IMG/VR virus record: IMGVR_UViG_3300045988_085402
Location: 1-35,293 of that record
Strand: one strand, 5' to 3'
Length of the DNA stretch: 35,293 nucleotides
Origin: a virus
In this document: one piece after another, positions 1-35,025 of the stretch
How positions within the stretch are numbered: position 1 is the stretch's first letter
How the letters are laid out: each line of letters opens with the position of its first letter
Position numbers and translations under genes: made by a program
The notes under the pieces: model-generated
Databases searched by the model: none
What the model was told of the DNA's origin: nothing
What the model saw: only the letters and a program-made list of their open reading frames with translations

Positions 1-55
1 AAGGCTCCTACGCCACCGCCCCCGCCGGCAGCATCGTCATCGTCCGCACCGCCTG
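1..55. repeat. Terminal direct repeat, left copy (identical to 35239..35293)
   Basis: Read directly: bases 1-55 (AAGGCTCCTACGCCACC...GTCCGCACCGCCTG) match the last 55 bases of the window base for base. This is the signature of a contig that closes on itself. Confidence 0.95.
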
Positions 56-21946: not shown

Positions 21947-22058
21947 CTTTCTCCTCTGTTGTTTCTTGACGGCCTTCTAGCCGCCCGACCCAGTACGCGC
22001 CCAGGATCGCTGCGGCGGCGAACCAATGGGCTGCGCACGGGACGATATGGGGGGTCAC
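21930..22058 (-). CDS. Unlisted 42-aa single-pass membrane ORF between endolysin and holin (possible second holin/antiholin component)
   Basis: Hand translation: VTPHIVPCAAHWFAAAAILGAYWVGRLEGRQETTEEKDESNC. GTG 22058 overlaps the endolysin stop (GTGA). The 3' end overlaps the holin start by 17 nt. Confidence 0.45.
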   Translation of the reverse strand: MTPHIVPCAAHWFAAAAILGAYWVGRLEGRQETTEEKDESNC

Positions 22059-23452
22059 TTTGCAGCGTCGGGCCGCTCAACGTCAGCGGGCTTCACGGCG
22101 GCGCGGATGTCGTTCACGGCGCCGTAGATCGCGCCCGCGGACTTGACGCCCTCCTGGCCGGGGGTGAGCGCATCGAGGACCTTGTCGACCGCGGCGTGGA
22201 TCGCCCTGGTCTCCTCGTAGGTCGCCTTCGCGTACCAGTTCATGTCGCCGGCGAAGTGGTCACCGGCCTGCCCGGACCTGAACAGGTCCCTGATCTCCCT
22301 GAGAAGGTCAACACCTTCAGCCATTTCCCATGCCTCCTGTCCTGCGCCGTTGGGGCGCCCGTAGTTGTACCACGACCTGCATCGGTCGCTGAAGGGTTCG
22401 CCGTACGCCTCGTAGGCGCCATAAGCGCTACCCGAATTGTAGCGGGAGCCAACACGCTTCAGGTCCTCGTAGGAGTCGCCTTCGGCGCTGATGAGGTCCC
22501 GGATGATGCCGCAACCGATCTCGGCGGACTTCTCAGGGTCCCACCAGGCCCGGTCGGGGTCATTGAAGAAGTAGCCCGGGTACGTGACCTGCAACGGGCC
22601 CACCCCGTTGGACGTGGCGCCGGCGCTGATCTGTGCGTAGAAGTCCCGGAACTTCTCTTCGGTGACTTCGCCGCCGCCGCAGTAGGCGCCGCCAGCGTCG
22701 TGGCCGAAGATATTCGCCCCGTACTCGCCGGTTTCCATCCACAGGGCCGCGAGCGCAGCCCACCAAGGGCAGCCGACATTGTCTGCGGCGCGCAGGACGG
22801 CTTGCTGCACGTACGACAGTTCGTACCCGTCGTGGCTGGCGCGGGACTGTTCCTGTGTGGGCGGGATAGGCGCTGCGGTGCCGCCGAGGTAGCGGAGGCA
22901 GTGCGTCCATCGGGCTGTCTGCGTGTACAGGTGGCCCTCATAGGACACACATCGACACTCGGAGCCGGTCTGGTCGCCGATGTACCCGTCGATGGAACCA
23001 TCTTCGGCGATCCACGCCTCGGACAGCCCGCCCTTGGTGACCATGGCGACGTGCCCGGCGCCTCCTGAGGCCGCCTCGGAGAGGATCAGGTCGCCGAGCT
23101 GGAGGCCGCCGTCCGGGTAGAGGCTGCTGTCGTCCCAGTGGACGTCCTCGAAGCCTCTGGAGGCGGCGTAGCCGCGAATGTTGCCTGTGTATGTGTCCCT
23201 GGGGAACATGATGCTGGAGTTCCAGGGTTCCCCGTCGGCGTGGAACGCGAAGTTCCAGGCGGCGGCGACGCCGGCGGAACAGTCCATGTTGGCGTCCGCG
23301 GTGAGCCAGCCAAGGTCGGTGGACCGTTCGTATGCCATCCACCGGTCGGGCTGCGAGTATCCGACGCTGTAGTCACCTCCTTGTGGTTTCCCGGGGCCGC
23401 AGGTGGCCCAGTACTCCATCTGGGCTGCGGCGGTTGCGGGTGATGCTGACAT
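22055..23452 (-). CDS. Endolysin: N-terminal NlpC/P60-CHAP-type peptidase plus lytic-transglycosylase-like domain
   Basis: 465 aa. Cys/His pair (NMDCSAGVAAAW ... GAGHVAMV) typical of cysteine peptidoglycan peptidases. The middle region (AALWMETGEYGANIFGHD ... GVGPLQVT) resembles the SLT catalytic Glu and GLMQ motifs. RBS AGGAGG. Confidence 0.8.
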   Translation of the reverse strand: MSASPATAAAQMEYWATCGPGKPQGGDYSVGYSQPDRWMAYERSTDLGWLTADANMDCSAGVAAAWNFAFHADGEPWNSSIMFPRDTYTGNIRGYAASRGFEDVHWDDSSLYPDGGLQLGDLILSEAASGGAGHVAMVTKGGLSEAWIAEDGSIDGYIGDQTGSECRCVSYEGHLYTQTARWTHCLRYLGGTAAPIPPTQEQSRASHDGYELSYVQQAVLRAADNVGCPWWAALAALWMETGEYGANIFGHDAGGAYCGGGEVTEEKFRDFYAQISAGATSNGVGPLQVTYPGYFFNDPDRAWWDPEKSAEIGCGIIRDLISAEGDSYEDLKRVGSRYNSGSAYGAYEAYGEPFSDRCRSWYNYGRPNGAGQEAWEMAEGVDLLREIRDLFRSGQAGDHFAGDMNWYAKATYEETRAIHAAVDKVLDALTPGQEGVKSAGAIYGAVNDIRAAVKPADVERPDAAK

Positions 23453-23528
23453 CTGCCCTCCTGTCTGTTGTGCCCCGTCGGGTCGGGGTGGTTGGTACCA
23501 GGGTAGCGGGGCCGTCGTATGGCGGCGC

Positions 23529-23660
23529 TCACCCGAAATCCTGGCGAATCGGGCATCGCGCCGGGTGATTGCTACCTCCGGCGGTCCTTTCCGGGGGTGG
23601 GGGGGGAGGCGGTGCCAGGGTGTTTTTCGCGTTTCGGTCGCGGATTTTTTTCGTTTTCAT
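23529..23660 (-). CDS. Possible 43-aa ORF coupled to the HNH stop (MKTKKIRDRNAKNTLAPPPPPPPERTAGGSNHPARCPIRQDFG)
   Basis: ATG 23660 overlaps the HNH stop (ATGA), which is the usual coupling pattern in this genome. However, the composition is driven by the strand-biased DNA and no RBS was seen. Confidence 0.2.
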   Translation of the reverse strand: MKTKKIRDRNAKNTLAPPPPPPPERTAGGSNHPARCPIRQDFG

Positions 23661-24100
23661 GTGAAGCGTTCGCGCAAGTTTCTGTTGCGCGTTTCGTTTG
23701 GTTTTTCTTCGTTTTGTTTCGTTTTGTTTTTGTTTTGTGTTTGTTGCATGTTTGGGTGCGGCGCGTGTTTGTGTTGTGTCATTGCGTGTCGTGTGGCGGT
23801 GCGCGCGAGGGTCTCGGCGGTGGTCTTGGCGTGGTGGCAGGCGTGGGAGAGGGGTTGCAGGTTGTCTATTGAATGATTGTCTCCGGGTGTGATGTGGTCG
23901 ATGTCTGTGGCGTGGCGGTTGCATCCGGCGGCGTGCCACCTCCCGGTGGGGGTGGTGGTGCCCCTGGCTATCTGGGTGGGTGTGCCCATTGGGTGGGGGA
24001 GTCCTGCGCATTTGTTGTTGTTTCTTTGTAGGACTTGTTGTCTTATTTTGTTCCAGTTGTTTGGGAGTCGTTGTCTGCGTGTGCTGGTGGTCCATGCCAT
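23657..24100 (-). CDS. HNH endonuclease (atypical: degenerate zinc-finger spacing and low-complexity tail)
   Basis: RRQRLPNNWNKIRQQVLQRNNNKC ... GCNRHATDIDHITPGDNHSIDNLQPLSHACHHAKT matches the phage HNH pattern (RLPxNW..IR..VL.R....C ... DHI.P......NLQ.LC..CH..KT). Confidence 0.8.
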   Translation of the reverse strand: MAWTTSTRRQRLPNNWNKIRQQVLQRNNNKCAGLPHPMGTPTQIARGTTTPTGRWHAAGCNRHATDIDHITPGDNHSIDNLQPLSHACHHAKTTAETLARTATRHAMTQHKHAPHPNMQQTQNKNKTKQNEEKPNETRNRNLRERFT

Positions 24101-24115
24101 GTGCCCATCCTAGGT

Positions 24116-24180
24116 GGGGTGGTGGGGGTGTGGGGTGGTTGGGTGGTTCCTGTCTGGGTGGGGGGTGTTTGGGTTGCGGG
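24116..24180 (+). other. Two canonical G-quadruplex motifs on the plus strand
   Basis: 24116-24143: GGGG TGGT GGGGG TGT GGGG TGGTT GGG. 24156-24180: GGG T GGGGGG TGTTT GGG TTGC GGG. Read directly. Confidence 0.6.
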
Positions 24181-24239
24181 TTTCTGGTGTTTGAGTTTCC
24201 CCGGGTTGGGTCTTTAGTCCTGCCCTGTGTGCTGGGTCA

Positions 24240-24404
24240 TGTGGGTAACTCTGTGGGTATCCCTGTGGATTGGTTGTGGATAACTTGTGGATAAGTGGTT
24301 GTGCATACAAGTGATTCACTGCACCACCCGAGTTACCCGCAGGTGGTTGTGGGTTGCGGATCGTTGGGGTTGCAATGGAAGGTGGGGTTATCCACATATC
24401 CACA
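24240..24404. promoter_or_regulatory. DnaA-box cluster (candidate origin of replication or DnaA-dependent control region)
   Basis: Five phased boxes: TGTGGGTAA 24240, TGTGGGTAT 24252, TGTGGATTG 24264, TGTGGATAA 24275, TGTGGATAA 24286. Opposite orientation: TTATCCACA 24388 and ATATCCACA 24396. Consensus TTATCCACA. Confidence 0.55.
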
Positions 24405-24410
24405 GGTGCC

Positions 24411-24452
24411 TACTGTCTACTACCTAGATATCTCTGGTTTGGTGTCATAGCC
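24411..24452. promoter_or_regulatory. Low-GC tract next to the DnaA boxes (candidate DNA unwinding element)
   Basis: TACTGTCTACTACCTAGATATCTCTGGTTTGGTGTCATAG is about 40% GC in a genome of about two-thirds GC. Contains the palindrome AGATATCT and the repeat CTACT. Confidence 0.3.
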
Positions 24453-24548
24453 CCAACGGGGCGCGGGCGCGTGGGTGGGGCGTCCGGTTCTCCTGGGTAC
24501 GAGGTCCCTGTCTGTGGTGGGTGGTGCGGTGTGGAGCGAGGAGATAGG

Positions 24549-24586
24549 CGGATCCCCCGGCGCCTGTGATGGTGTCGGGGGATCCG
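24549..24586 (-). terminator. Hairpin (11-bp stem CGGATCCCCCG/CGGGGGATCCG, 16-nt loop) after the small membrane-protein gene
   Basis: Read directly. Starts 5 nt past the stop at 24591. Confidence 0.5.
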
Positions 24587-24590
24587 GGGG

Positions 24591-24803
24591 TCAGCGGCGG
24601 TGGAAGCCTGGTCGGCTGCCGTGCTTGCGGGCCCAGCGGATGGGGCGCAGCGACGCGAGGCAGACGGCGGAGACGACGGTCCAGAGGAGGGAGGTGGAGA
24701 TGTCGAGCTCCCCGGTGGTGAAGCCGGCCCACCAGAGGAGTGCGGCGTGGATGGCGGAGAGGATGCCGGAGATGAGTGCGGTGGCGTAGAGGGTGCGGGT
24801 CAT
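24591..24803 (-). CDS. Small membrane protein (70 aa, two hydrophobic segments)
   Basis: ORF track. LYATALISGILSAIHAALLWWAGF and SLLWTVVSAVCLASL. RBS AGGGAG. Confidence 0.6.
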   Translation of the reverse strand: MTRTLYATALISGILSAIHAALLWWAGFTTGELDISTSLLWTVVSAVCLASLRPIRWARKHGSRPGFHRR

Positions 24804-27121: not shown

Positions 27122-27310
27122 GGCTGACCTCTGGGGAACACAACAAGAAAACCATGAGGTCAGCCGATCAACCAACGGGGTCAACCATACCGCATGCCGG
27201 CCGGATGGGTTCCGCCCCTGGCGCCGGCGTGGGTCGCGCCTGTGTGGACGCCGGGGAGCGCCGGCACCGGGGGGGTAGGGGGGGTGTTTATTCTCTTGGA
27301 TAAGGTTTGG

Positions 27311-27354
27311 GTCTCATTTTGATACCCCCCTGTCGTCTCATTTTGATACCCCCC
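27311..27354. repeat. Two perfect 20-bp direct repeats GTCTCATTTTGATACCCCCC (27311-27330, 27335-27354); iteron/operator candidates
   Basis: Read directly. 24-bp period. Located in the divergent intergenic region. Confidence 0.85.
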
Positions 27355-27395
27355 CGCGCCCCCCTCGACCGTGACCAACGTCACCGAGACACGGG

Positions 27396-27424
27396 TTGAC
27401 CGGCGTGTCGACACGCCGTAGATT
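27396..27424 (+). promoter_or_regulatory. Rightward early promoter candidate: TTGACC - 17 nt - TAGATT
   Basis: The -35 (27396-27401) and -10 (27419-27424, TANNNT type) have a 17-nt spacer. They lie about 40 nt upstream of the first plus-strand gene. Confidence 0.55.
27401..27418. promoter_or_regulatory. Perfect 18-bp palindrome CGGCGTGTCGACACGCCG filling the promoter spacer (operator candidate)
   Basis: Read directly. The reverse complement of CGGCGTGTC is GACACGCCG. Confidence 0.6.
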
Positions 27425-27465
27425 GATTCCGTCAACTCAATCAACCCCCACCGAGGAGGAACCAA

Positions 27466-27726
27466 ATGAACACCACCGCTCAGCTCCCCAGCCAGGCCGG
27501 CACCACCCTGATCACCTGGGTCGCCACCCTCAGCATCGTCTGGGTCCTGGCCTCCGCCTTCGCCCTGGTTACCGGCCACGTCACGATGGTCGTCGTCCTC
27601 GGGCTCGTCGTCGGCCTGCCGGCCGCCATCCGAGCCACCCGGTCCAGCAACCGCAGGAAGGCCATTCTCCGCCACGCTGCGGCCCGAACGGCCCCGGTCC
27701 GGTACCAGGCACCGGCCGCACGCTGA
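27466..27726 (+). CDS. Early membrane protein (86 aa, two hydrophobic segments)
   Basis: ORF track. RBS GGAGGA. TLITWVATLSIVWVLASAFALV and VVVLGLVVGLPAAI. Confidence 0.65.
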   Translation: MNTTAQLPSQAGTTLITWVATLSIVWVLASAFALVTGHVTMVVVLGLVVGLPAAIRATRSSNRRKAILRHAAARTAPVRYQAPAAR

Positions 27727-27770
27727 GCGGCCCTCAGAAACGCTCCTACGGCTTTAGGAAGGAACACCGC

Positions 27771-28064
27771 ATGTACCTGTCGACCGCCGCTCAGAACGAC
27801 ACCGCAACCCTCGTCGCCAAGTGGGTCCGCGAGAACACGATCAGCTATGGCGCCGTAGCCACCGAGGTCGGCCGAGCCGGCTACCCCGATGCTGCGGTCG
27901 TAGCCATCGCCGAGAACGGCAGCGCCACCTGCACCGCGAAGGTCGCCGTCCACCACAACCGCATCGTGTACGTGTCGAAGGTCGGCGCCCACGTCTCCTA
28001 CCCGACCACCTTCAGGGATGCCGGCCGGATCGTCGGGGGTTTCCTCTCCCTCGAGGAGGACTGA
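27771..28064 (+). CDS. Hypothetical small early protein (97 aa)
   Basis: ATG 27771 preceded by GGAAGGAACACC. In frame with ORF 27396..28064. Confidence 0.65.
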   Translation: MYLSTAAQNDTATLVAKWVRENTISYGAVATEVGRAGYPDAAVVAIAENGSATCTAKVAVHHNRIVYVSKVGAHVSYPTTFRDAGRIVGGFLSLEED

Positions 28065-28354
28065 TGTTCCATCGACGCAAGAGGAACCCGCGGACGATGG
28101 CCTTAGATGTCGCCAAGGAAATTGGCCGGCGCGGGCTCCCCGCCAAAGTGGAAGCCGTTACCGTGATGTCCGCGGCAGGGAACGTTCGGAGGTGCGCGGT
28201 CGTGATTCCAGGTCGCGGCGTCGCGGTCATAAACAACGACCTCAGTATCATTGTCGTCTCGTCCAACAAACCCCTCCCGTGGAATCTGGAATTCAAATGC
28301 GAGAACACCGAAGCTGCCGCGGAAAATATTTTGAGAAATCTGCCACTGCCATGA
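28064..28354 (+). CDS. Hypothetical small early protein (96 aa)
   Basis: ATG overlaps the upstream stop (TGATG). RBS GAGGAGGA. Confidence 0.65.
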   Translation: MFHRRKRNPRTMALDVAKEIGRRGLPAKVEAVTVMSAAGNVRRCAVVIPGRGVAVINNDLSIIVVSSNKPLPWNLEFKCENTEAAAENILRNLPLP

Positions 28355-28521
28355 ACATTCCCCAGAATACTGAGATGAGAAACCGGCCCAGGCCCGCGAA
28401 AGCGGCAGCCATCAGATACAGGCGGCGCGTCGAGCGGGCCGAGATGGCCTACCGGAAGCACGCCACCTACACCGACCCGACCACCGGCCGCACCCAAACA
28501 ATCAACATCCGCCACAGCTGA
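28351..28521 (+). CDS. Hypothetical basic protein (56 aa)
   Basis: ATGA overlap with the upstream gene. MNIPQNTEMRNRPRPAKAAAIRYRRRVERAEMAYRKHATYTDPTTGRTQTINIRHS. Confidence 0.5.
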   Translation: MNIPQNTEMRNRPRPAKAAAIRYRRRVERAEMAYRKHATYTDPTTGRTQTINIRHS

Positions 28522-28533
28522 AAGGAACCACCA

Positions 28534-29115
28534 ATGCAACTCTCCGACATTGAAGGCCTTCTCCGCTCCCACCTCATCGAAGGGGAGGTCATGGTCGAGG
28601 AGCCCACCAACCACAGAGCCTTCGGCGACCGCATGTACATCATCACCACCTCAGGACTGCCCGTGTGGGTGTACATCATCGAGGCGGAAAGCCTGTACGC
28701 CATCGAGGCGGAAGGCGCCCTTGAAGTGTGGGGGCCCGGCGTAGGCGAACCCGACCGGACTGTTGAAGCTGTCCTCGGTCACGCCCGCCGCAACGGCGCC
28801 CCGGAGCCGCCGCCGGACCCCGAAGTGGTTTTCGCCGACGTGATCGCCTACCTGCGTCCACTACTCCGGGAAGGCGAGTCCCTGTCAACAGGCAGGGACG
28901 ATCGCAGCGGCGACCCGACGCTGGTCATCTCAACCGCCGTCAACCATTCCTCCATCTCCTGGCGCAACGGTCTCCTCGACTACACCAGCCCCTACGACCG
29001 CGCGTACCACCACTACGCAGACGAGGAGAGCGGCTTCGGTGACCTCCTCGACCTCGCGCTCACCGAGGCTAGAGCCGCCGCTGACGCGGAGCAGGACTAC
29101 TTCGGCAACCGCTGA
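28534..29115 (+). CDS. Hypothetical early protein (193 aa; looks like two tandem copies of the small-protein layout)
   Basis: ORF track. RBS GAAAGGAACC. Confidence 0.7.
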   Translation: MQLSDIEGLLRSHLIEGEVMVEEPTNHRAFGDRMYIITTSGLPVWVYIIEAESLYAIEAEGALEVWGPGVGEPDRTVEAVLGHARRNGAPEPPPDPEVVFADVIAYLRPLLREGESLSTGRDDRSGDPTLVISTAVNHSSISWRNGLLDYTSPYDRAYHHYADEESGFGDLLDLALTEARAAADAEQDYFGNR

Positions 29116-29141
29116 ACCAACCAACTGAAAGGAACCCATCA

Positions 29142-29426
29142 ATGTCACCTCTGCACCAGGCCCGCCTTCTCGTGCCGCTCCTCGAAGCTATCCGCAAGCA
29201 CCTCGGCTACGGCGAGTACGCCGCCTTCCGGCGCACTACCTACGGATCTCCGTACATTGAGGCCCGCACCGAGCGCGGCAATGTGATCGCCGGCATTGAC
29301 GAGGACGGCACGTACACATTGGACGCCGCTGGCAGCCGCTACGTCTGCGACCCGAACGGCACGAAGGACGCCATCTACAATGCGATCCGCCGGGCCCTCA
29401 ACGACGCCCGCGAGGAGTGGTCATGA
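29142..29426 (+). CDS. Hypothetical small early protein (94 aa)
   Basis: ORF track. RBS GAAAGGAACCC. Confidence 0.7.
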   Translation: MSPLHQARLLVPLLEAIRKHLGYGEYAAFRRTTYGSPYIEARTERGNVIAGIDEDGTYTLDAAGSRYVCDPNGTKDAIYNAIRRALNDAREEWS

Positions 29427-29725
29427 TCGGCCGCTACGCCAGCATCGCAGACAGGGTCGCTATGGCCAAGGTCATCGCCGACGTCTGCATCCGCGACCAC
29501 TCGGGCCCGGATTACCTCATCGAGGAGCCTATGGTTGACGGCGAAGCCGCAACACTGCACATTTACTGGGGGGACCAGAACCTTATGTCCGTCCACGTCG
29601 GCCGGGCTGGAGTCACCATGCACGCTGGCCGATCAACCGTGGACATGCCATACCAATGCGACGCGCACCCCGCAGACGTAGCCAACCAGCTCCTCGGCAC
29701 AATGATGAAAGGAACACCCCGATGA
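29423..29725 (+). CDS. Hypothetical small early protein (100 aa; alternative start GTG 29417)
   Basis: ATGA overlap with the upstream stop. GAGGAG upstream. Confidence 0.65.
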   Translation: MIGRYASIADRVAMAKVIADVCIRDHSGPDYLIEEPMVDGEAATLHIYWGDQNLMSVHVGRAGVTMHAGRSTVDMPYQCDAHPADVANQLLGTMMKGTPR

Positions 29726-30411
29726 CAGACCGTATCGAGCACGCAAAAATCGTCGCCCAGTCCACACTGATCCCCGCTGAATACCGAGGCAAGCCCGCCG
29801 ACATTGTGTGGGCCATGGACATCGGCGACGCCCTGGGCGTCCCATACACGCAGGTGATGCAGTCAATGGTCGTGGCCCGCGGCAAGATGACAATGTCCGC
29901 GGACCTTATGGGCGCCGTCGTCAGGCGGGCCGGCCACAAGCTGCGCCTCCACGAAGACGGCGACTCTGTGACCGCGACCCTGATCCGCGCCGACGACCCC
30001 GACTACGAATTCACTGTCACCTGGGACAAGACGAAAGCGCGGGCGGCCGGCCTGTGGGGCAGCCGCGGCCCGTGGCAGCAGTACCCGCGACAGATGCTCC
30101 GCGCCCGCGCTATCACCGAGGTGTGCCGCCAGGGCGCATCGGACGCCCTCGCGGGCACCGTCTACACGCCGGAGGAGCTGGAATCCGCGCCCACGCAGAA
30201 CGCCCGGCAGGAACCCAAAGAGGACCACACGCAGCGAGACATGACCCGCACCATCCTCATGGACTACTGCCACGAGACCGGACGGGACGCCAACGAAGTC
30301 TGGCGGCAGGCGCAGGCCGCCGGGGCCAGCATGGACGACCCCGACTCTCTGTCCGCCGTCATCGACAAATGGGCGGCCGGCATCAACGCGGAGCCGCAGG
30401 AGGAGCAGTGA
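29722..30411 (+). CDS. recT: RecT-family single-strand annealing protein
   Basis: 229 aa. STLIPAEYRGKPADIVWAMDIGDALGVPYTQVMQSMVVARGK ... GPWQQYPRQMLRARAITEVCR follows the RecT pattern. RBS GAAAGGAACACC. ATGA overlap. Confidence 0.7.
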   Translation: MTDRIEHAKIVAQSTLIPAEYRGKPADIVWAMDIGDALGVPYTQVMQSMVVARGKMTMSADLMGAVVRRAGHKLRLHEDGDSVTATLIRADDPDYEFTVTWDKTKARAAGLWGSRGPWQQYPRQMLRARAITEVCRQGASDALAGTVYTPEELESAPTQNARQEPKEDHTQRDMTRTILMDYCHETGRDANEVWRQAQAAGASMDDPDSLSAVIDKWAAGINAEPQEEQ

Positions 30412-30776
30412 ACCTCCGAACCGTCACCCCGATCGGAGTGCAACGGCGAATCCTGTCTCTCATGTGGATCGGCCACTCCGAACAGCGGATCGCCGACATG
30501 GCCGGCGTGAAACTGAAGTCAGTGCGGAAAGGCCGCGCAGGCGAGTACGTGCCCGAAGAGGACAGGCTCCTCATCGCGTGCGCCTGGTCCCGCAACCAAT
30601 GCAACCTCGCCCCCGTGAACTACGGGTCGCAGGTCGCCCACAAGACTGCGGTTGACTCCGGCGCGCACTCCCCGCTCGCATGGGATGAAGACGACATTGA
30701 CAATTACCACGCCGAACCACATGATCTAACGAAGGGCCGGGACCGGTCCCCGTGGAACAGAAAGGAACACTCATGA
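30408..30776 (+). CDS. HTH DNA-binding protein (122 aa)
   Basis: GTGA overlap with recT. QRRILSLMWIGHSEQRIADMAGVKLKSVRK looks like a LuxR/sigma-region-4-type helix-turn-helix. Confidence 0.55.
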   Translation: MNLRTVTPIGVQRRILSLMWIGHSEQRIADMAGVKLKSVRKGRAGEYVPEEDRLLIACAWSRNQCNLAPVNYGSQVAHKTAVDSGAHSPLAWDEDDIDNYHAEPHDLTKGRDRSPWNRKEHS

Positions 30777-31447
30777 AGATCATCGTCCAGAAGACAATGA
30801 ACGTGACAGACCCAGTCCGAGCCCACGACACAGACGCCGGCCTCGACCTGTACGTCCCTGAAGGGCAGACCTGCCTGGTGCGCAGGGGCGCCGTGTACAC
30901 GATCGACCTCGGCGTCAGGGTCGCCATCCCGGACGGCTACTACGGACAATTGACCCTCCGGTCGTCCGCCGGGCGGAAGGGACTCACAATCCCCCACGGC
31001 GTAGGGGTCATCGACTCCGGGTACCGCGGCAACCTGAAGGTCCTTGTCACTGCCCTTACCGAACCGGTCCTTGTCGCCGCCAGGGATCGCATCTGCCAGC
31101 TCATTGTCCTTCCCCTGCCCCCCGTCGACTACGAGCCCGGCATCGTGGATGACAACACTGACCGCGGCGCGGGCGGATTCGGGTCCACCGGAACCGGGGC
31201 CACGGGCCGCGACTACGCCGCCGGCAGCGCCGGCAGCCTCACCATCGGCCAGCTCATAGGGCAGTTGCAGGACGCCGCCCTCCGCTACGGCAACGACACC
31301 CCCGTCGCCGTCATTGCCGACGGCGGGCTCGACTACGAACAGGCGGACACCCTAGCCGTCATCAACACCACCAAGACCGGCCACGTCGCCGGCTGGGACC
31401 AGTACCGCGCAGACCCCGACGGCACCCCCATGGCGGTGATCTCATGA
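30773..31447 (+). CDS. dut: dUTPase fused to an ~80-aa C-terminal extra domain
   Basis: Motifs AGLDL, GVIDSGYRG and RGAGGFGSTG of trimeric dUTPases fall within aa 1-140. Aa 141-224 are additional. ATGA overlap. RBS GAAAGGAACAC. Confidence 0.85.
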   Translation: MKIIVQKTMNVTDPVRAHDTDAGLDLYVPEGQTCLVRRGAVYTIDLGVRVAIPDGYYGQLTLRSSAGRKGLTIPHGVGVIDSGYRGNLKVLVTALTEPVLVAARDRICQLIVLPLPPVDYEPGIVDDNTDRGAGGFGSTGTGATGRDYAAGSAGSLTIGQLIGQLQDAALRYGNDTPVAVIADGGLDYEQADTLAVINTTKTGHVAGWDQYRADPDGTPMAVIS

Positions 31448-31689
31448 ACGACAAGGAAAAAAAGATGGACAACAGGACCTACCTCACCGTCGACGGCCTC
31501 GCGCGCGAGCTGCAAGAGATCGCCGACCGGTACGGCAACATCCCCGTAGTCACCCCCACCAAGGCGGACGCCGACTACGAGCAAGCCACTGTTCCGATCG
31601 TCATGCACGGCAGGCGAGAGGTGGTGCCCGGCGATTGGGACCTGTTCCACATCGAACCCAGCGGCGAGCCTGTGGTGGTGATCTCATGA
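31444..31689 (+). CDS. Stand-alone paralogue of the dUTPase C-terminal domain (81 aa)
   Basis: Alignable by eye with dUTPase aa 155-224: LT(I/V)..L...LQ..A.RYGN.PV...DYEQA...G.WD...P.G.P..VIS. Confidence 0.7.
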   Translation: MNDKEKKMDNRTYLTVDGLARELQEIADRYGNIPVVTPTKADADYEQATVPIVMHGRREVVPGDWDLFHIEPSGEPVVVIS

Positions 31690-32063
31690 GCGACAACGTG
31701 AATCACCCCGCCCACTACACGCGGTGGCCCGTCGAGGCCATCAACCTGACCGAGCGGGAAACGTTCCTGATCGGCAACGTCCTGAAGTACGCGCTCCGCG
31801 CCGGCGTCAAGGATGGCAGCACGTACGGGGAGGACATGGCGAAAGCCCGCTGGTACGCGCGCAGGCACGTCGACAACATCGCCGCCAGGGACTCCTGGCA
31901 GGCCGGCCTCGACTCCCTGCAGACACACTTCGCAGACGCCACCGCCTACCTGACCTCCCGACAGGAAGACACCACCGAGATGCGCGCATACCTGCAGGAC
32001 CAGCTGACCGCCATCCACGATCGGGTCGAGAAGGAGCTGTGCGAAGCATGGGACGCAACCTGA
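31686..32063 (+). CDS. DUF3310-like protein (125 aa)
   Basis: N-terminal VNHPAHYTRWPVEAINL...FLIGNVLKYALRAG...EDMAKARWY matches the DUF3310 (SaV-like) signature. Confidence 0.75.
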   Translation: MSDNVNHPAHYTRWPVEAINLTERETFLIGNVLKYALRAGVKDGSTYGEDMAKARWYARRHVDNIAARDSWQAGLDSLQTHFADATAYLTSRQEDTTEMRAYLQDQLTAIHDRVEKELCEAWDAT

Positions 32064-32428
32064 GGTCCGCGAAAGCCGCCGGCTCCCGGTTCGAACGGCT
32101 CATCGCAAACCACCTCAACGACCGGCTGTACGGCCTCCACGTCGACCGGCAAGTCAAGACTGGTGCCCACGACTCCGGCGACATAGCCGGAGTCCACCTC
32201 GCCGGCAAGCGCATCGCCATTGAATGCAAAAACGTTACCCGCATGGACTTGCCGAGGTGGACTCGGGAAGCGCACACTGAAGCCGGCAACATCGGCGGGG
32301 CGGCCGGAGTGGTCATCCACAAGAGACACGGCAACAACAAGCCCGAAGACCAGTGGGTGACCATGACCGTCACCGACCTTGTCACCATCATCAACCTGTT
32401 CAACGAAAGGAACACCAATGGCCGCTGA
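32048..32428 (+). CDS. PD-(D/E)XK nuclease, Holliday-junction-resolvase-like (126 aa)
   Basis: GSRFERLIANHL ... DSGDIAGV ... KRIAIECKN gives the D...E.K core. Resembles the small resolvase family of actinophages, recalled from memory and not searched. Confidence 0.6.
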   Translation: MGRNLRSAKAAGSRFERLIANHLNDRLYGLHVDRQVKTGAHDSGDIAGVHLAGKRIAIECKNVTRMDLPRWTREAHTEAGNIGGAAGVVIHKRHGNNKPEDQWVTMTVTDLVTIINLFNERNTNGR

Positions 32429-32816
32429 GATCACCGTTACGGGGACGCTCACCAGAGACCCGGAGATCAAGTACGCGCAGTCAGGCACCGCCATGCTGAA
32501 GCTCGCCATGGCCGCCACCAGGCGAACCCAGAACCGAGACACGAAGCAATGGGAAGACGACGGCGACCCGCTGTACGTCGACGCCACATTCTTCGGCGAC
32601 CGGGAGAACTACCTCGGCGACATCCTCCGCAAAGGCGACCAGGTGTCCATAACCGGCGCGCTCATCCGCCGCAACTGGGAGTCCGGCTCCAAGTCCGGCG
32701 TCGCCCTCGAGGTCCGATTCCCGAAGCTCCTCGGGTACATCAGGAAATCCGACAGGGCCGGCGGCGTGCAGGCACTCGCCCCGACCACGTCCAACACGTT
32801 CAACGCCCCGTTCTGA
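32418..32816 (+). CDS. ssb: Single-stranded DNA-binding protein
   Basis: ITVTGTLTRDPEIKYAQSGTAMLKLAMAATRR ... ATFFGDRENYLGDILRKGDQVSITGALIRRNWES is an OB-fold SSB pattern. RBS GAAAGGAACACC. Confidence 0.85.
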   Translation: MAAEITVTGTLTRDPEIKYAQSGTAMLKLAMAATRRTQNRDTKQWEDDGDPLYVDATFFGDRENYLGDILRKGDQVSITGALIRRNWESGSKSGVALEVRFPKLLGYIRKSDRAGGVQALAPTTSNTFNAPF

Positions 32817-32827
32817 CGGGCGTCACA

Positions 32828-32860
32828 GGTGGGGGGAAACCGTCAGGGAGTACCCCCACC
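32828..32860 (+). terminator. Hairpin GGTGGGGG ... CCCCCACC after ssb
   Basis: 8-bp G/C stem, 12 nt past the ssb stop. No U-tract. Confidence 0.45.
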
Positions 32861-32905
32861 CACCTCACTACACGTAGACCCTCATAAAACGAAAGACATA
32901 AACCA

Positions 32906-33184
32906 ATGGCTTCATTCGAGATCATGATCGCCTCGCAGCCGTCCTGTCAGCAGTGCCGCTCCTCGAAGCGGTACCTGACCAAGAACAGCACACCCTACCT
33001 GGAGACGAAGTACAAGGACGACGACACCGCGCAGGCGATCGCCTCCACGAACAACTACACGGCCGCCCCGGTCTGCTATGTGATCGACAAGCGCAGCGGC
33101 GATACCGTCGACCACTGGGCAGGGTTCAACATGTTCAAGCTCCGCCAGTGGGCGAACAACTACAAGAAGGAGCTGAGCGAATGA
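32906..33184 (+). CDS. nrdH: NrdH-like glutaredoxin
   Basis: CQQC redox motif near the N-terminus, plus AAPVCYV and DHWAGFNMFKL (compare the NrdH pattern C.QC ... APVV ... HWSGFRPD). Confidence 0.8.
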   Translation: MASFEIMIASQPSCQQCRSSKRYLTKNSTPYLETKYKDDDTAQAIASTNNYTAAPVCYVIDKRSGDTVDHWAGFNMFKLRQWANNYKKELSE

Positions 33185-34335
33185 CCCCCCTGGACGAGGC
33201 GATCATTGAGAACGACGCCCTGCCGCAGCATCAGCGGCGCACCAACCAAGCCATCGCCGACGAGTACGGCACCTCCGAGGCCGCCGTCAGGCGTCACAGG
33301 AAGGCGCTGAAGCGGCGCAGCGAGATGGGCAAAGGCGGCGTTGACGAGTACTTCGGCGTGCCCGTCGAAGCCATCACGGCCCGCGGGAAGACAGTGCGTC
33401 TGGCCGACGGGTCGTACGAGAAGATCACGTACAAGCCTGGCGTTGCCGAGCGCAGCGAGGTGCAGGCCCACCGTTACGAGGATCTTGCGCCGATCTTCGC
33501 AGAGCCGGCCGGCCCGGCCCCTGAGATGTCAACCCCGTCGACGGTTGTGGTCGTGATGTCCGACCTGCAGATCGGGAAGACTGACCGAGGTGGCGGCACC
33601 GAGGAGACCGTCCGCCGGGTCCGTTCCTCTGCCGCCCAGATCGCCGACCATGTGACCGGCCGGTTCCGGAAGGTCATCCTCGTGGACTGCGGCGACTCCA
33701 CCGAAGGGTTCAGCAACACGGTCAGCCAGGCGCAGACCAATGACCTGCCGCTCACATATCAGATCAGGACGGCGCAGGCGTTGCTCGCTGACGCGCTCCG
33801 GGCTCTGGTGCCGGCCGCCCCGGAGGTCACCTACGTGGCGGTCCCGTCGAACCACTGCCAGGTACGTACCGGAATCGGGCGCAGCAATAGGGCCTCGTTC
33901 CCCGGGGACGACTACGGGCTTCTGATCGCCGACAACATCCGGCAGATCATTGCCGGCCGGCCCGGCTACGAGCACGTTCAGTTCGAGGTACCAGAGAAGC
34001 GGTTGGAGTCGCTGACCGTGCGGGCCGCCGACGGGACGGTCATGGGGGTCACCCACGGCCATGCCGCCGGATCGAAGAGCCGGGTCGCGGACTGGTTCCG
34101 GGGGCAGGCGTTCGGATGCGTGGCGGGCATGCAGGACGCCCGGGTGCTTCTGCATGGCCACTGGCATTCCTTCTCGGTGCAGACGGCCGGGGACAGCCGG
34201 CAGATCATCTGCGCGCCGACCGCGGATCCGGGTTCGAGTTGGTTCCAGAACGCTTCCGGCGACTCGTCCGCGCCGGCCGTGTTGACGTTCGAGTTGGGCG
34301 GCGGCACGTCGTCCGGTTGGCGCCTCTGGTCGTGA
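33181..34335 (+). CDS. Calcineurin-type metallophosphoesterase (Mre11/SbcD-like nuclease candidate) with N-terminal HTH-like region
   Basis: Ordered motifs VVVMSDLQIG, VDCGDSTEG, VPSNH, GVTHGH and LLHGHWH. N-terminal QRRTNQAIADEYGTSEAAVRRHRKAL. ATGA overlap with nrdH. Confidence 0.75.
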   Translation: MTPLDEAIIENDALPQHQRRTNQAIADEYGTSEAAVRRHRKALKRRSEMGKGGVDEYFGVPVEAITARGKTVRLADGSYEKITYKPGVAERSEVQAHRYEDLAPIFAEPAGPAPEMSTPSTVVVVMSDLQIGKTDRGGGTEETVRRVRSSAAQIADHVTGRFRKVILVDCGDSTEGFSNTVSQAQTNDLPLTYQIRTAQALLADALRALVPAAPEVTYVAVPSNHCQVRTGIGRSNRASFPGDDYGLLIADNIRQIIAGRPGYEHVQFEVPEKRLESLTVRAADGTVMGVTHGHAAGSKSRVADWFRGQAFGCVAGMQDARVLLHGHWHSFSVQTAGDSRQIICAPTADPGSSWFQNASGDSSAPAVLTFELGGGTSSGWRLWS

Positions 34336-34339
34336 CGCT

Positions 34340-34379
34340 GACGTCGCGGGGTACTCTTGATATGCGGCCCCGCGACGTC
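34340..34379 (+). terminator. Perfect 12-bp-stem hairpin GACGTCGCGGGG ... CCCCGCGACGTC after the phosphoesterase gene
   Basis: Read directly. Starts 5 nt after the stop. 16-nt loop. Confidence 0.55.
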
Positions 34380-34553
34380 CCGCGGTCCGGTCCTCTCCGC
34401 CATCCCCGGCGTCCGAGGGGGCCGGACCCTCCCACGCCCCCCACCCCCCAACGCTCGTGTGGCCGATCTCACGGGCGGACGGGTTGATGGGCGACCCACA
34501 CAGTAGGAGCATTGACCGTGTCTGATAAGTCAACCAACAGAAAGGAAACAGAC

Positions 34554-34775
34554 ATGAACACCACCGCCCAGCTGAACGCCGCCCCCCGCACCGACGCGGC
34601 CGGCAACGCCCTCACCCGGTTCACCCTCACCCTCGACGGCGAGCGGGTCTACCAGGACGTCGACCAGTGGGGACTCCCCTACGACGGCTCCCCCAACAGC
34701 GGCCTCCACGGCGATCTCTGCGCCTGGCTGACCACCATGGGCCGCCTCGACGCGGACGCCCTCAACGCTCTCTGA
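34554..34775 (+). CDS. Hypothetical small early protein (73 aa)
   Basis: ATG 34554 preceded by GAAAGGAAAC. In frame with ORF 34512..34775. Confidence 0.65.
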   Translation: MNTTAQLNAAPRTDAAGNALTRFTLTLDGERVYQDVDQWGLPYDGSPNSGLHGDLCAWLTTMGRLDADALNAL

Positions 34776-34806
34776 ACGATCGCCCACAACCCGGAAGGAG
34801 CCACCA

Positions 34807-35025
34807 ATGAACGCAGCCACCATCGCCCGGATCGCCGCGTGGAACGTCATCGCCGACCAGGAACTGCCCGCCGGCACCAAGGTCACCGTCAAAGACGGGC
34901 GGGTCACCATCCATCCTCGCGGCGGTCAGCCGGCCCACATTCCCTACGGCCCAGCAGACACTCTCGGCAGCCTCTACAGCGCCCTCAAAGACGCGGCCCA
35001 GGCGACCACCAAGACCCCCCACTGA
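34807..35025 (+). CDS. Hypothetical small early protein (72 aa)
   Basis: ORF track. RBS GGAAGGAGCC. Confidence 0.65.
   Translation: MNAATIARIAAWNVIADQELPAGTKVTVKDGRVTIHPRGGQPAHIPYGPADTLGSLYSALKDAAQATTKTPH

What the first reader, a model, noticed from the sequence alone, without database searches (positions are those of the whole stretch)
23560..24240. About 0.7-kb island that is about 90% G+T on one strand, with G-quadruplex motifs, a T-rich low-GC tract and a compositionally distorted HNH gene
Seen in sequence (hand counts, plus strand):
- 23701-23760 has G16 T38 C5 A1, which is 90% G+T and only 35% GC.
- 24121-24180 has G37 T19 C4 A0, which is 93% G+T.
- There are two canonical G4 motifs (24116-24143 and 24156-24180) and a G5-T-G8 run at 23593-23606.
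- GTTTT-type repeats occur at 23690-23750 (GGTTTTTCTTCGTTTTGTTTCGTTTTGTTTTTGTTTTGTGTTTGTTG).

The HNH gene is encoded on the complementary C+A-rich strand, and its product shows three oddities:
- It is T/P/H/Q/N/K-rich.
- It has about 29 residues between the first Cys pair, where HNH proteins usually have a few, and SHACH where CxxCH is expected.
- It ends in a ~45-aa low-complexity tail (...QQTQNKNKTKQNEEKPNETRNRN...).

Established knowledge: joint C-to-T and A-to-G deamination of a strand that spends time single-stranded yields exactly a G+T-rich strand, as in the vertebrate mitochondrial heavy strand.

Inference, two options:
- The plus strand here may be persistently exposed, for example as a displaced strand at the adjacent DnaA-box region, in an R-loop, or at a packaging end.
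- The island may be a selected structural DNA element, such as a G4-gated late promoter or a cos/pac region.
Basis: partly seen in the sequence, partly recalled or inferred. Interest (0 to 1): 0.65.

Follow-up and report, generated by a model that had tools for sequence, protein, structure and literature searches.

The report
Strand-skewed HNH gene beside phage cos site
The odd G+T-rich stretch is real: it is the last ~700 bp of a phage genome's right end (a packaging-nuclease gene plus the DNA cutting site), and its lopsided base composition looks maintained by selection rather than caused by DNA damage, though its purpose is still unproven.

Summary
Window 23575-24260 is the strongest G+T outlier of this 35.2-kb circularly assembled actinophage genome: 76% overall, 90-93% only in 60-bp windows.

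It is not an anonymous island. It is the right-terminal module of a cos phage:
- a C-tract region;
- a terminase-associated HNH endonuclease gene (24100-23657, minus strand);
- a conserved C-run and the cos cleavage site, placed at 23573|23574 by its match to the mapped ends of phages Footloose and Sue2.

The skew is C+A richness of the sense strand, i.e. G/U avoidance. At third codon positions the whole leftward early block shares it (0.73-0.85). HNH stands out only at positions 1 and 2, because the protein is weakly constrained (dN/dS 0.31).

The bias persists in sub-clades whose HNH is below 50% identical, and is absent from more distant HNH-cos phages.

Young variants run away from C+A (12 versus 34 in the island; 28 versus 80 in DnaB+Rep). 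That argues against ongoing deamination and for selective maintenance.

The G4 motifs are mostly what this composition predicts. The sense RNA is the least structured in the genome, with C/G up to 9.2. Function is inferred, not shown.

The parts
23575..24260 (-). The compositional island: the sense (minus) strand is 76% C+A, G 17%, T 7%. It is bounded by the cos site and by the iteron array.
   Evidence: It is the global maximum of the window at three scales.
23563..23585 (-). Predicted cos cleavage region. On the sense strand ...CCGCCGGAGGT | AGCAATCAC, the virion right end would stop at 23574 and the left end start at 23573. By analogy it carries a 3' overhang of unknown length.
   Evidence: The motif matches the mapped right|left ends of Footloose (...GGGGAT|AGCCGCTCC) and Sue2 (...GGGGCAT|AGCGTCC), and is conserved in L010, L011 and L029-L033. 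Contigs L006 and L034 end within a few nt to ~15 nt of the corresponding point.
23593..23606 (-). C8AC5 run (G5TG8 on the plus strand), 20-35 nt before the cos cut. It is part of the conserved cos architecture.
   Evidence: Equivalent C-run blocks occur in Sue2 (C6TC6TC3TC3), L010, L029-L033 and L011. G4Hunter is at least 2 over 23587-23620.
23626..23656 (.). Conserved A7-TCCGCG...CGCG element just after the HNH stop. On the plus strand it reads as a hairpin followed by a T7 run.
   Evidence: It is conserved in all close relatives and in L029-L031.
23657..24100 (-). HNH endonuclease gene, 147 aa, of the terminase-associated type. C+A at codon positions 1/2/3 is 0.73/0.69/0.85.
   Evidence: phrog_333 E=8e-25. 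tblastn matches annotated actinophage HNH genes lying at genome ends. H69, N80 and H89 are invariant. dN/dS is 0.31.
23660..23749 (-). Low-complexity Q/N/K/T tail of HNH (about residues 118-147), encoded by the AAAAC/GTTTT repeat at 23691-23745. It includes a 7-bp-stem hairpin at 23671-23691.
   Evidence: In L010 the same repeat DNA lies mostly after the stop codon. Tail dN/dS is 0.28.
23936..23998 (-). Clade-specific insert of about 20-23 aa in the loop between Cys31 and Cys60.
   Evidence: Absent from L011, Footloose, Sue2, Samy and Nedarya. Present, with different sequence, in L010, L029-L034.
24107..24112 (-). TAGGAT hexamer at -12..-7 from the HNH ATG. It is a candidate -10 element for a leaderless transcript, or alternatively a degenerate Shine-Dalgarno sequence.
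   Evidence: TANNNT lies at this exact distance in 18 of 19 clade members, although the NNN varies (GGA, GAA, CCA, CCC, GGG). Outgroups carry AGGAGG there instead.
24113..24254 (-). C-tract region (G-tracts on the plus strand) upstream of HNH. C is 51% and T 2% at -120..-13. Sense-RNA C/G reaches 9.2. It holds the two canonical G4 motifs at 24116-24143 and 24156-24180.
   Evidence: Four independent IMG/VR contigs break inside it at different positions.
24240..24404 (.). Flanking element, not part of the skewed island: six direct and three inverted TTAYCCACA (DnaA-box-like) iterons, a probable replication origin.

Best explanation
Window 23575-24260 is the right-terminal module of a cos-packaging siphophage genome.

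Read on the minus strand, it runs as follows:
- a C-tract region;
- a conserved TANNNT hexamer six bases before the start codon;
- a terminase-associated HNH endonuclease gene;
- an AAAAC-repeat tail;
- a small hairpin and an A-run;
- a C-run;
- the cos cleavage site at 23573|23574.

The G+T richness of the plus strand is avoidance of G and U on the sense strand. That bias acts on the whole leftward early block, from the divergent promoter near 27300 down to cos, where third codon positions are 73-85% C+A. It shows at all codon positions only in HNH and its non-coding flanks. HNH tolerates it because little of the protein is constrained beyond the catalytic core. The T/P/H/Q/N/K richness, the loop insert and the low-complexity tail are consequences of the bias.

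The composition is held by preferential retention of C and A, which looks like selection. It is not produced by ongoing strand-specific deamination.

Most likely mechanism (inferred, not shown): the bias keeps this transcript free of secondary structure and C-rich/G-poor. This either favours expression of the early genes and HNH in a 65% GC genome, or makes the untranslated parts a Rho-loading (rut-like) gate on transcription running across cos into the late genes.

The G-runs are partly a cos-site component and partly a by-product of the composition.
For: **Anatomy**
- HNH matches phrog_333 at 8e-25 and has annotated homologues at actinophage genome ends.
- H69, N80 and H89 are invariant.
- The cos motif matches the mapped ends of Footloose and Sue2 and is conserved through the clade.
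- Island edges lie at about 23575 and about 24270.

**The bias is operon-wide at synonymous sites**
- Third-position C+A is Rep 0.79, DnaB 0.73, TM 0.85 and HNH 0.85.
- HNH is an outlier only at positions 1 and 2, 0.73 and 0.69.
- Rightward early genes are C+A-rich on their own coding strand.

**Long-term maintenance**
- Sub-clades with HNH at 44-53% identity and unalignable flanks keep C+A at 0.63-0.76, with sharp edges.
- L010 carries a swapped HNH-cos cassette on an otherwise ~88-92% identical backbone, and the cassette is still skewed.
- More distant homologues are not skewed: the median over 74 loci is 0.55.

**Against a mutational drive**
- Island singletons run 12 toward and 34 away from C+A (p = 0.0016), with equal per-site rates.
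- Sense C>T is 0.022 per site against 0.141 in the lysin control.
- DnaB+Rep third positions run 28 toward and 80 away. Young variants predict an equilibrium C+A of 0.56, against 0.78 observed.

**Constraint**
- The pre-cos spacer is 92% identical among relatives while dS is 0.21-0.34.
- HNH dN/dS is 0.31, and 0.28-0.35 in the insert and the tail.

**Physical consequence**
- Sense-RNA folding energy is -7.5 to -15 kcal/mol per 120 nt, against a genome mean of -43.7 +/- 9.4. Eleven of the 15 weakest windows lie in the island.
- C/G reaches 9.2, against a 99th percentile of 2.64.
- Rut sites are described as unstructured, C-rich, G-poor stretches of at least 70-80 nt (PMC6407284).
Against: - No transcript, terminus or protein activity has been measured.
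- The cos position rests on motif homology and on two contig ends.
- The selection inference rests on 7-12 metagenomic sequences polarised by the minor allele. A non-equilibrium composition, or sequencing errors among the singletons, could mimic it.
- A 16-bp-stem hairpin at 24549-24586 already offers a terminator for the early operon, which weakens the need for a Rho gate.
- If HNH is leaderless, the most skewed 150 bp lie upstream of its transcript. An RNA-level reading then needs read-through from upstream.
- C-rich, G-poor coding RNA would also expose the phage's own genes to Rho.
- The third-position maximum and the purine/pyrimidine balance (55:45) are equally what a transition-biased mutational process would leave behind.
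Confidence: 0.55

Rival explanations
1. Mutational origin, the reader's option 1. The plus strand spends time single-stranded, for example as the 5'-ended strand displaced from the cos nick, in an R-loop, or beside the origin. Deamination of C to T and A to G has then made it G+T-rich, as in the vertebrate mtDNA heavy strand.
For: - The bias is strongest at third codon positions (0.85) and is also present in non-coding flanks.
- The purine:pyrimidine ratio stays near 55:45, as transitions alone would leave it.
- Within the island, plus-strand C>T (0.086 per site) exceeds minus-strand C>T (0.022 per site).
- The plus strand is the one whose 5' end lies at the inferred cos end.
Against: - Young variants flow away from C+A, 12 versus 34 and 28 versus 80.
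- Plus-strand A>G is 0 of 41 and 0 of 11 sites.
- Plus-strand C>T is no higher than in the control. The asymmetry comes from a deficit of sense-strand C>T.
- The edges are sharp rather than graded.
- The skew follows the coding strand in both early operons.
- HNH dS is lower than in the lysin gene, not higher.
- The island is detached from the iterons in L029 and L031.
- Transcription-coupled deamination of the non-template strand predicts the opposite sign.
Confidence: 0.12
2. DNA-level structural element, the reader's option 2. The G-runs or G4s, and the strand-asymmetric duplex, are selected as a gate on the HNH/late promoter, or as part of packaging termination and ejection, since this is the last DNA packaged and the first ejected.
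For: - G4Hunter is at least 2.0 at 23587-23620, 24110-24148 and 24156-24180. All six such sites in the genome appear to be intergenic, with the C-rich strand being the sense strand of the downstream gene.
- C-runs before cos are conserved from Sue2 to this clade.
- C-tracts persist upstream of the TANNNT hexamer in three sub-clades.
- The island ends at cos. The HK97 packaging motor stalls at cos, and its HNH protein promotes cleavage there (PMC9410871).
- Palindromes are at the genome minimum.
Against: - C-run clustering is only marginally above composition in the window clade (p 0.03-0.25), and not at all in the L029 sub-clade, L011 or Footloose.
- Canonical G4 motifs are not enriched genome-wide: 10 observed against about 14 expected (not used).
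- The skew extends over the HNH coding sequence and, at third positions, over 3.6 kb of early genes. A point-like DNA signal does not explain that.
Confidence: 0.2
3. Replication-linked skew. The plus strand from about 15.3 kb to about 27.3 kb is the leading-strand sequence of a bidirectional replicon, and the island is simply where that signal is least masked by coding constraint.
For: - Cumulative GC skew has one minimum near 15.3 kb and one maximum near 27.3 kb.
- In Footloose and L011 the skew flips exactly at cos, with origin-like polarity.
Against: - The implied origin would lie among the head and tail genes, while the iterons, Rep and DnaB sit at 24.2-27.2 kb.
- The jump in magnitude at cos and the sharp upstream edge in L029 and L031 are not explained.
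- AT skew follows the coding strand.
- Young variants show no directional input.
Confidence: 0.08
4. No function. The module is a mosaic, horizontally exchanged cassette, inflated by slippage-generated low-complexity repeats (AAAAC, CCACCCC) that happen to be strand-asymmetric.
For: - The HNH-cos cassette is swapped in L010 relative to an otherwise ~88-92% identical backbone.
- GC is lower, 55% against 65%.
- There are tandem arrays of period 5, 8 and 15.
- The tail repeat is coding in one lineage and mostly non-coding in another.
Against: - The HNH core, which is not repetitive, is also 73% C+A.
- The neighbouring genes share the third-position bias.
- The bias is retained in every cassette variant.
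- Purifying selection acts on the insert and the tail.
Confidence: 0.05

Closest known systems
Terminase-associated HNH endonucleases next to cos (HK97 gp74 type; actinophage 'HNH endonuclease' genes at genome ends, such as Footloose gp71 and Sue2 gp68)
   Same: - Small HNH protein with the H...N...H core.
- N-terminus M-A/P-W-x-x-S-x-R-x-x-R-L-P.
- The gene is the last one before cos, with terminase genes on the other side.
- HK97 GP74 promotes cos cleavage by TerL (PMC9410871).
   Different: - A loop insert of about 20-23 aa and a low-complexity tail of about 30 aa.
- Ser replaces the first Cys of the second zinc pair (shared with Footloose and L011).
- Extreme C+A coding bias.
- An endolysin-like gene and one unknown gene lie between cos and TerS.
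Actinophage cos sites with defined termini (Footloose, Sue2, Samy)
   Same: A C- or G-run block 20-60 nt before the end, then GAAAG-like bases, then ...GG(N)AT | AGC... at the junction.
   Different: The ends here are inferred, not mapped, and the overhang length is unknown. In Sue2 and Samy the adjacent HNH gene is not skewed.
Rho utilisation (rut) sites, such as lambda tR1; criteria as in RhoTermPredict (PMC6407284)
   Same: At least 78 nt of C-rich, G-poor, unstructured RNA. Here C/G is 2.4 at the median and 9.2 at the peak, over about 650 nt.
   Different: Much longer than a rut site and mostly coding. No evidence of Rho action, and the host and its Rho are unknown.
Vertebrate mitochondrial heavy-strand G+T skew (deamination of single-stranded DNA)
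   Same: One strand is G+T-rich, the bias is strongest at synonymous sites, and the encoded protein composition is dragged along.
   Different: Recent substitutions here show no directional C>T or A>G input on the G+T strand. The edges are sharp, and the skew follows the coding strand.
Bacterial promoter-proximal G-quadruplex motifs
   Same: G4Hunter of at least 2 on the template strand just upstream of a candidate -10 element.
   Different: The motif density is about what 51-56% C composition gives by chance. Folding has not been tested.

Membership tests
Terminase-associated HNH endonuclease (HK97 gp74-like; PHROG 333; Pfam PF01844) | HNH catalytic motif: His, then Asn, then His | tested here: met
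   D68-H69, N80 and H89 are invariant across 8 sequences down to 40% identity.
Terminase-associated HNH endonuclease (HK97 gp74-like; PHROG 333; Pfam PF01844) | Significant profile match | tested here: met
   phrog_333 E=8.3e-25 over residues 1-138. The Pfam HNH match is below the gathering score, 17.2 against 21.4 bits. PDB 5H0M matches only at E=0.9.
Terminase-associated HNH endonuclease (HK97 gp74-like; PHROG 333; Pfam PF01844) | Canonical CxxC...CxxC zinc site | tested here: not met
   The protein has C31-x28-C60 and S85-x2-C88. Ser85 is shared with Footloose and L011, while L010 keeps Cys. This is a variable trait of the subfamily, so it does not bar membership.
Terminase-associated HNH endonuclease (HK97 gp74-like; PHROG 333; Pfam PF01844) | Gene adjacent to cos and to the terminase genes | tested here: met
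   The inferred cos site is 83 bp after the stop codon. TerS and TerL lie 2.1-2.4 kb further on the same strand.
Terminase-associated HNH endonuclease (HK97 gp74-like; PHROG 333; Pfam PF01844) | Stimulates TerL cleavage at cos | not testable with these tools
   This needs biochemistry.
cos site (cohesive-end packaging signal) | Sequence homologous to experimentally defined termini of related phages | tested here: met
   the window, L010, L011 and L029-L033 align to the Footloose and Sue2 right|left junctions.
cos site (cohesive-end packaging signal) | Physical genome ends at that position | tested here: inconclusive
   Contigs L006 and L034 end within a few nt to ~15 nt of it. Four other contigs end in the upstream C-tract at varying positions, which looks like assembly breaks. 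No read-level data are available.
G-quadruplex-forming sequence | Four G3+ runs with loops of 1-7 nt, or a high G4Hunter score | tested here: met
   24116-24143 and 24156-24180 are canonical. G4Hunter reaches 2.52.
G-quadruplex-forming sequence | Enrichment beyond local composition, and conservation as runs | tested here: inconclusive
   Island: 2 motifs against 0.44 expected, p = 0.05. Run clustering has p 0.03-0.25 in the close clade and none in other skewed lineages.
G-quadruplex-forming sequence | Folding in vitro or in vivo | not testable with these tools
   This needs CD, melting or polymerase-stop assays.
Rho utilisation site / Rho-dependent attenuator | At least 78 nt of unstructured RNA with C/G above 1 | tested here: met
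   Median C/G is 2.43 and the maximum 9.2; 68% of island windows are at or above 2. Folding energy is the weakest in the genome. Criteria are from PMC6407284.
Rho utilisation site / Rho-dependent attenuator | Ribosome-free nascent RNA and Rho-dependent 3' ends | not testable with these tools
   No transcript data exist and the host is unknown (one search found no host relative).
Deamination-driven strand asymmetry (mtDNA heavy-strand type) | Excess of C>T and A>G on the G+T-rich strand among recent substitutions | tested here: not met
   per-site rates are symmetric, the net flux runs away from the skew, and plus-strand A>G is 0 of 41 and 0 of 11.
Deamination-driven strand asymmetry (mtDNA heavy-strand type) | Bias strongest at synonymous sites | tested here: met
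   Third-position C+A is 0.85, against 0.73 and 0.69 at positions 1 and 2.
Origin DNA-unwinding element beside iterons | Contiguity with the initiator-binding repeats across relatives | tested here: not met
   In L029 and L031 the box array lies 1.16-1.38 kb upstream, and about 650 bp of unskewed DNA separates it from the island.

The most novel reading that the evidence does not exclude
The 0.7-1.0 kb terminal module is a selected composition element. One version: a structure-free, C-rich RNA acts with Rho or an antiterminator. Another: its G-rich template strand acts as a roadblock. Either way it would gate transcription across the cos junction, so that late genes fire only after circularisation or replication. 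Alternatively it conditions the last-packaged, first-ejected DNA for motor arrest at cos. The HNH protein sequence would have been reshaped to fit this nucleotide-level requirement.
Probability: 0.22. Interest if true: 0.6.

Novelty: new variant of a known kind. Interest (0 to 1): 0.4.

Why it matters
If the reading is right, this is a clean natural case of a nucleotide-level requirement overriding protein sequence. An essential packaging nuclease has been pushed to 76% C+A, with an added insert and tail, next to the genome end.

It also gives a concrete, testable handle on two poorly understood matters in actinophages. One is how early and late transcription are separated at the cos junction. 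The other is what the conserved C-runs beside 3'-overhang cos sites do.

In practice, it gives a sequence rule (C-run ... GAAAG ... GGNAT|AGC after a terminal HNH gene) for placing genome ends in metagenomic phage contigs. It also warns that G-tract regions break assemblies and can mimic termini.

If the skew proves to be neutral, the result is ordinary: a compositional curiosity in a known module.

Tried and rejected
- **DNA similarity search of phage records.** Nothing close was found. Low-complexity masking probably contributed.
- **AlphaFold2 on the 9-sequence HNH alignment.** Mean pLDDT was 41 and the model is unusable, so no fold search was run.
- **PDB sequence search.** Only marginal hits, with 5H0M at E=0.9.
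- **Rfam on 23300-24700.** No family matched.
- **Consensus promoter scan.** No sigma-70-type sites. The five terminator-like hits on the plus strand are not above the shuffle expectation of 3.3 +/- 1.8, and they reflect T-richness.
- **Directional comparison with unskewed homologues.** G>A, T>C, G>C and T>A are all asymmetric. At 40-50% identity the sites are saturated, so this only restates the composition difference. I rejected it as a test of mutational path.
- **Chi-like protection of the DNA end.** Considered and set aside. The strand ending 3' at the right end is the C+A-rich one, opposite to the orientation in which known G-rich Chi sites act (reasoning from established RecBCD/AddAB polarity; not tested).
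- **Transcription-coupled deamination of the non-template strand.** It predicts the wrong sign.
- **Origin unwinding element.** Rejected because the island detaches from the iterons in L029 and L031.
- **Literature searches for phage G4/cos or phage strand asymmetry.** Nothing specific turned up.
Full report
**1. Checking the observation**

- 23701-23760 is G16 T38 C5 A1.
- 24121-24180 is G37 T19 C4 A0.
- G5TG8 lies at 23593-23606.
- Both G4 patterns are present.
- Tandem Repeats Finder reports a GTTTT array at 23691-23745.

Sliding windows of 60, 200 and 680 bp all put the genome-wide maximum of G+T here. The 680-bp value is 0.769, against a mean of 0.507 and sd 0.070. A 60-bp profile shows sharp edges at about 23575 and about 24270.

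Four corrections apply.
- The island as a whole is 76% G+T, not 90%.
- The gap between the first Cys pair is 28 residues.
- 'SHACH' is not peculiar to this protein.
- The G4 motifs are close to what the local composition predicts.

**2. What the window is**

The first and last 55 nt are identical, so the window is a circular assembly of about 35,238 bp. It has 65% GC and no close relative among deposited phages.

Reading the minus strand from the divergent control region near 27300, the order is as follows:
- replication initiator, 27184-26234;
- DnaB, 26258-24954;
- a small membrane protein, 24803-24591;
- a 490-bp spacer holding nine TTAYCCACA repeats;
- HNH, 24100-23657;
- a 204-bp spacer;
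- an endolysin-like protein, then TerS, TerL, portal, head and tail genes.

Rightward early genes (RecT, dUTPase, kinase, SSB, exonuclease) occupy 27396-35025.

**3. The HNH gene is real and belongs to a known kind**

- It matches PHROG 333 at E=8e-25.
- By tblastn it matches hundreds of annotated actinophage HNH genes that sit at genome ends next to the terminase genes.
- H69, N80 and H89 are invariant in an alignment reaching 40% identity.
- Ser85 in place of Cys is shared with Footloose and L011.
- The loop insert of about 20-23 aa occurs only in the broader clade: the window group, and L010 and L029-L034 with other sequences.
- The low-complexity tail is found in most of that clade (the window group, L029-L031 and L033; L032 and L034 end without it). 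In L010 the protein stops early, and the same AAAAC-repeat DNA continues as non-coding sequence. This suggests the repeat DNA is the primary feature and the protein tail a read-through of it.
- Among ten close relatives, dN/dS is 0.31 overall and 0.28-0.35 in the insert and tail. The lysin gene gives 0.07. So the protein is functional but weakly constrained.

**4. The island ends at cos**

Footloose (TerL 46% identical) and Sue2 have experimentally defined linear ends with HNH as the last gene. Their right|left junctions read:
- Footloose: ...GGGGGTGGGGGTGCCTCC...CGCCGGGGAT | AGCCGCTCC
- Sue2: ...CCCTCCCCCCTCCCCCCTCCCTCCCTGACCGAAGGGGCAT | AGCGTCC

The window's sense strand reads ...CCTCCCCCCCCACCCCCGGAAAGGACCGCCGGAGGT | AGCAATCAC. 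L010, L011 and L029-L033 carry the same layout.

This places the cut at 23573|23574.

Contig ends give partial support.
- Contigs L006 and L034 end within a few nt to ~15 nt of this point.
- Four other contigs end inside the upstream C-tract, at four different offsets (32, 37, 48 and 59 nt before the ATG). These look like assembly breaks in G-tract DNA rather than true ends.

By analogy with lambda and HK97, packaging starts on the terminase side. The island would then be the last DNA packaged and the first ejected. This is an inference. In HK97 the HNH protein promotes cos cleavage and the motor stalls at cos (PMC9410871).

**5. What the skew is**

On the sense strand the island is C+A-rich. 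HNH has A 38%, C 38%, G 17% and T 7%. C+A at codon positions 1/2/3 is 0.73/0.69/0.85, and only 2 of 148 third positions are T.

At third positions HNH is not an outlier within its own block: Rep is 0.79, DnaB 0.73 and TM 0.85. It is an outlier only at positions 1 and 2. The rightward early genes are also C+A-rich on their own coding strand (third positions 0.52-0.75), so the skew follows the coding strand.

The 'island' is therefore the least protein-constrained end of a transcription-unit-wide avoidance of G and U. It consists of a small, tolerant protein and its non-coding flanks.

**6. Comparative depth**

The homologous HNH is the most C+A-rich place in the Footloose genome (0.68), and it is 0.71 in L011. 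Sue2, Samy and Nedarya show no bias.

Across 74 IMG/VR loci the median is 0.55. Nine loci have C+A of 0.65 or more, and all of them are at least 43% identical to the query.

Sub-clade L029-L031 has about 50% HNH identity and flanks that cannot be aligned. It still has a 1-kb island of 0.65-0.86, with sharp edges at -500 and at cos. There the iteron array lies 1.2 kb upstream, separated by unskewed DNA. The island therefore travels with HNH and cos, not with the origin.

L010 is 88-92% identical to the window clade in DnaB, the iterons and the lysin. It is only 65% identical in HNH and the pre-cos spacer. This is a swapped HNH-cos cassette that is still skewed.

**7. Mutation or selection**

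Singleton variants in 12 relatives (island, sense strand) give:
- 12 changes toward C+A and 34 away (p = 0.0016);
- per-site rates of 0.076 and 0.065, not significantly different;
- plus-strand A>G at 0 of 41 sites;
- plus-strand C>T at 0.086 per site, against 0.071 in the lysin control;
- a sixfold deficit of sense-strand C>T, 0.022 against 0.141. This is the real difference from the control.

DnaB+Rep third positions give 28 toward and 80 away (p = 6e-7). Young variants predict an equilibrium C+A of 0.56, against 0.78 observed.

Several further points argue the same way.
- HNH dS (0.21) is lower than lysin dS (0.34).
- The pre-cos spacer is 92% identical among relatives.
- Deamination of the non-template strand during transcription would give the opposite sign (established knowledge).

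I therefore favour maintenance by preferential retention of C and A. The sample is small and is polarised by the minor allele. The comparison with unskewed homologues is saturated and does not help.

**8. G4 motifs**

G4Hunter is at least 2.0 at 23587-23620, 24110-24148, 24156-24180 and 27260-27294 on the plus strand. On the minus strand it is at least 2.0 at 27340-27373 and 34422-34457. All six sites appear to be intergenic, with the C-rich strand being the sense strand of the downstream gene.

Canonical motifs are not enriched genome-wide, 10 against about 14 expected. The island has 2 against 0.44 expected, p = 0.05.

Shuffling the 108 nt upstream of HNH gives almost the same scores. In the L029 sub-clade, L011 and Footloose there is no excess of runs at all.

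Composition is the primary feature. G4 potential is largely a by-product, with the possible exception of the cos-proximal run.

**9. Physical consequence and proposed mechanism**

- The sense RNA of the island is the least structured in the genome: -7.5 to -15 kcal/mol per 120 nt, against -43.7 +/- 9.4. Eleven of the 15 weakest windows lie in the island.
- C/G in 78-nt windows has a median of 2.4 and peaks at 9.2 at 24085-24219. The genome's 99th percentile is 2.64.
- Unstructured, C-rich, G-poor RNA of at least 70-80 nt is the description of a Rho loading site (PMC6407284).
- A TANNNT hexamer lies exactly six bases before the ATG in 18 of 19 clade members, although its middle bases vary. Outgroups have AGGAGG there. 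HNH may therefore be expressed as a leaderless mRNA, which is common in Actinobacteria (own knowledge). The hexamer could instead be a degenerate ribosome-binding site.

My best reading, which is inferred, is this. The composition keeps the early-left transcript, HNH and its flanks unstructured. Either this favours expression in a high-GC setting, or the untranslated parts act as a Rho-type gate on transcription that would otherwise cross cos into the late genes.

Two points cut against it.
- A strong hairpin at 24549-24586 could already end the early operon.
- The most skewed 150 bp would lie upstream of a leaderless HNH transcript.

**10. Verdict**

The deamination reading is not supported. 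The 'cos region' guess is right, and the 'G4 gate' reading is unproven and weakened.

The module is a known kind, a terminal HNH gene plus cos, in an unusually skewed variant shared by one clade of phages from metagenomes (including a Human Microbiome Project sample). The cause of the skew is not settled.

Noticed in passing
window 24240-24404: There are six direct copies of TTAYCCACA at 11-14 bp spacing on the minus strand, and three inverted copies. All three perfect TTATCCACA (E. coli-type DnaA box) sites of the window lie here. The array sits next to the Rep initiator and DnaB genes, so it is a probable origin. It is conserved in L010, L030, L032 and L033, and displaced 1.2 kb upstream in L029 and L031.
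   Followed up: partly
window 24549-24586: A 16-bp-stem inverted repeat (CGGATCCCCCGGCGCC / GGTGTCGGGGGATCCG, loop of 6) lies immediately after the stop of the small membrane-protein gene. It is a candidate U-tract-less terminator of the early-left operon.
   Followed up: no
window 27185-27400: The divergent control region holds two direct copies of GTCTCATTTTGATACCCCCC and a conserved GAGAATAAACAC7TAC7 element. Relatives L004 and L005 carry a different repeat (GGCGGCTCATTTTGAGCC) at the same place, which suggests operator or immunity-type variation.
   Followed up: partly
window 27260-27294, 27340-27373, 34422-34457: The other three G4Hunter >= 2 sites of the genome also appear to be intergenic. 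Each has its C-rich strand on the sense strand of the downstream gene. Long C-runs look like a recurrent feature of operon starts in this phage.
   Followed up: partly
window 1-55 and 35239-35293: There is an exact 55-nt terminal overlap. The window is a circularly closed assembly of about 35,238 bp, so its ends are arbitrary.
   Followed up: yes
L001, L003, L007, L008 (IMG/VR contigs), equivalent to window 24132-24160: Four independent contigs end inside the C/G-tract region 32-59 nt upstream of the HNH start, at different positions. This probably reflects assembly or coverage failure in G-tract DNA, which could be mistaken for genome termini.
   Followed up: partly
L010 versus window, 23576-24100: The HNH gene and the pre-cos spacer are about 65% identical, while DnaB, the iterons and the lysin are 88-92% identical. 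The HNH-cos cassette appears to be exchanged as a unit, which suggests nuclease and site co-specificity.
   Followed up: partly
whole window: Cumulative GC skew has a single minimum near 15.3 kb, between the head and tail genes, and a maximum near 27.3 kb, at the divergent promoter. AT skew instead follows the coding strand. In Footloose and L011 the C+A skew flips sharply at cos.
   Followed up: partly
window 24591-24803: The 70-aa membrane-protein gene is missing, or replaced by gaps, in some close relatives. It is a small mosaic indel.
   Followed up: no
window 22055-23452: The first gene after the inferred cos site encodes a 465-aa protein with an endolysin-like domain (PF25309). It lies before TerS, which is an unusual position for a lysin-like gene. 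The arrangement is conserved in L029-L033.
   Followed up: no
window 24110-24403 (minus strand) and L031 -550..0: Long open frames (97 aa here, 182 aa in L031) run through the C+A-rich non-coding DNA, and one is called as a gene in ENA. They are probably spurious, because T-poor sequence has few stop codons: 1-5 stops in 228 codons per sense frame.
   Followed up: partly
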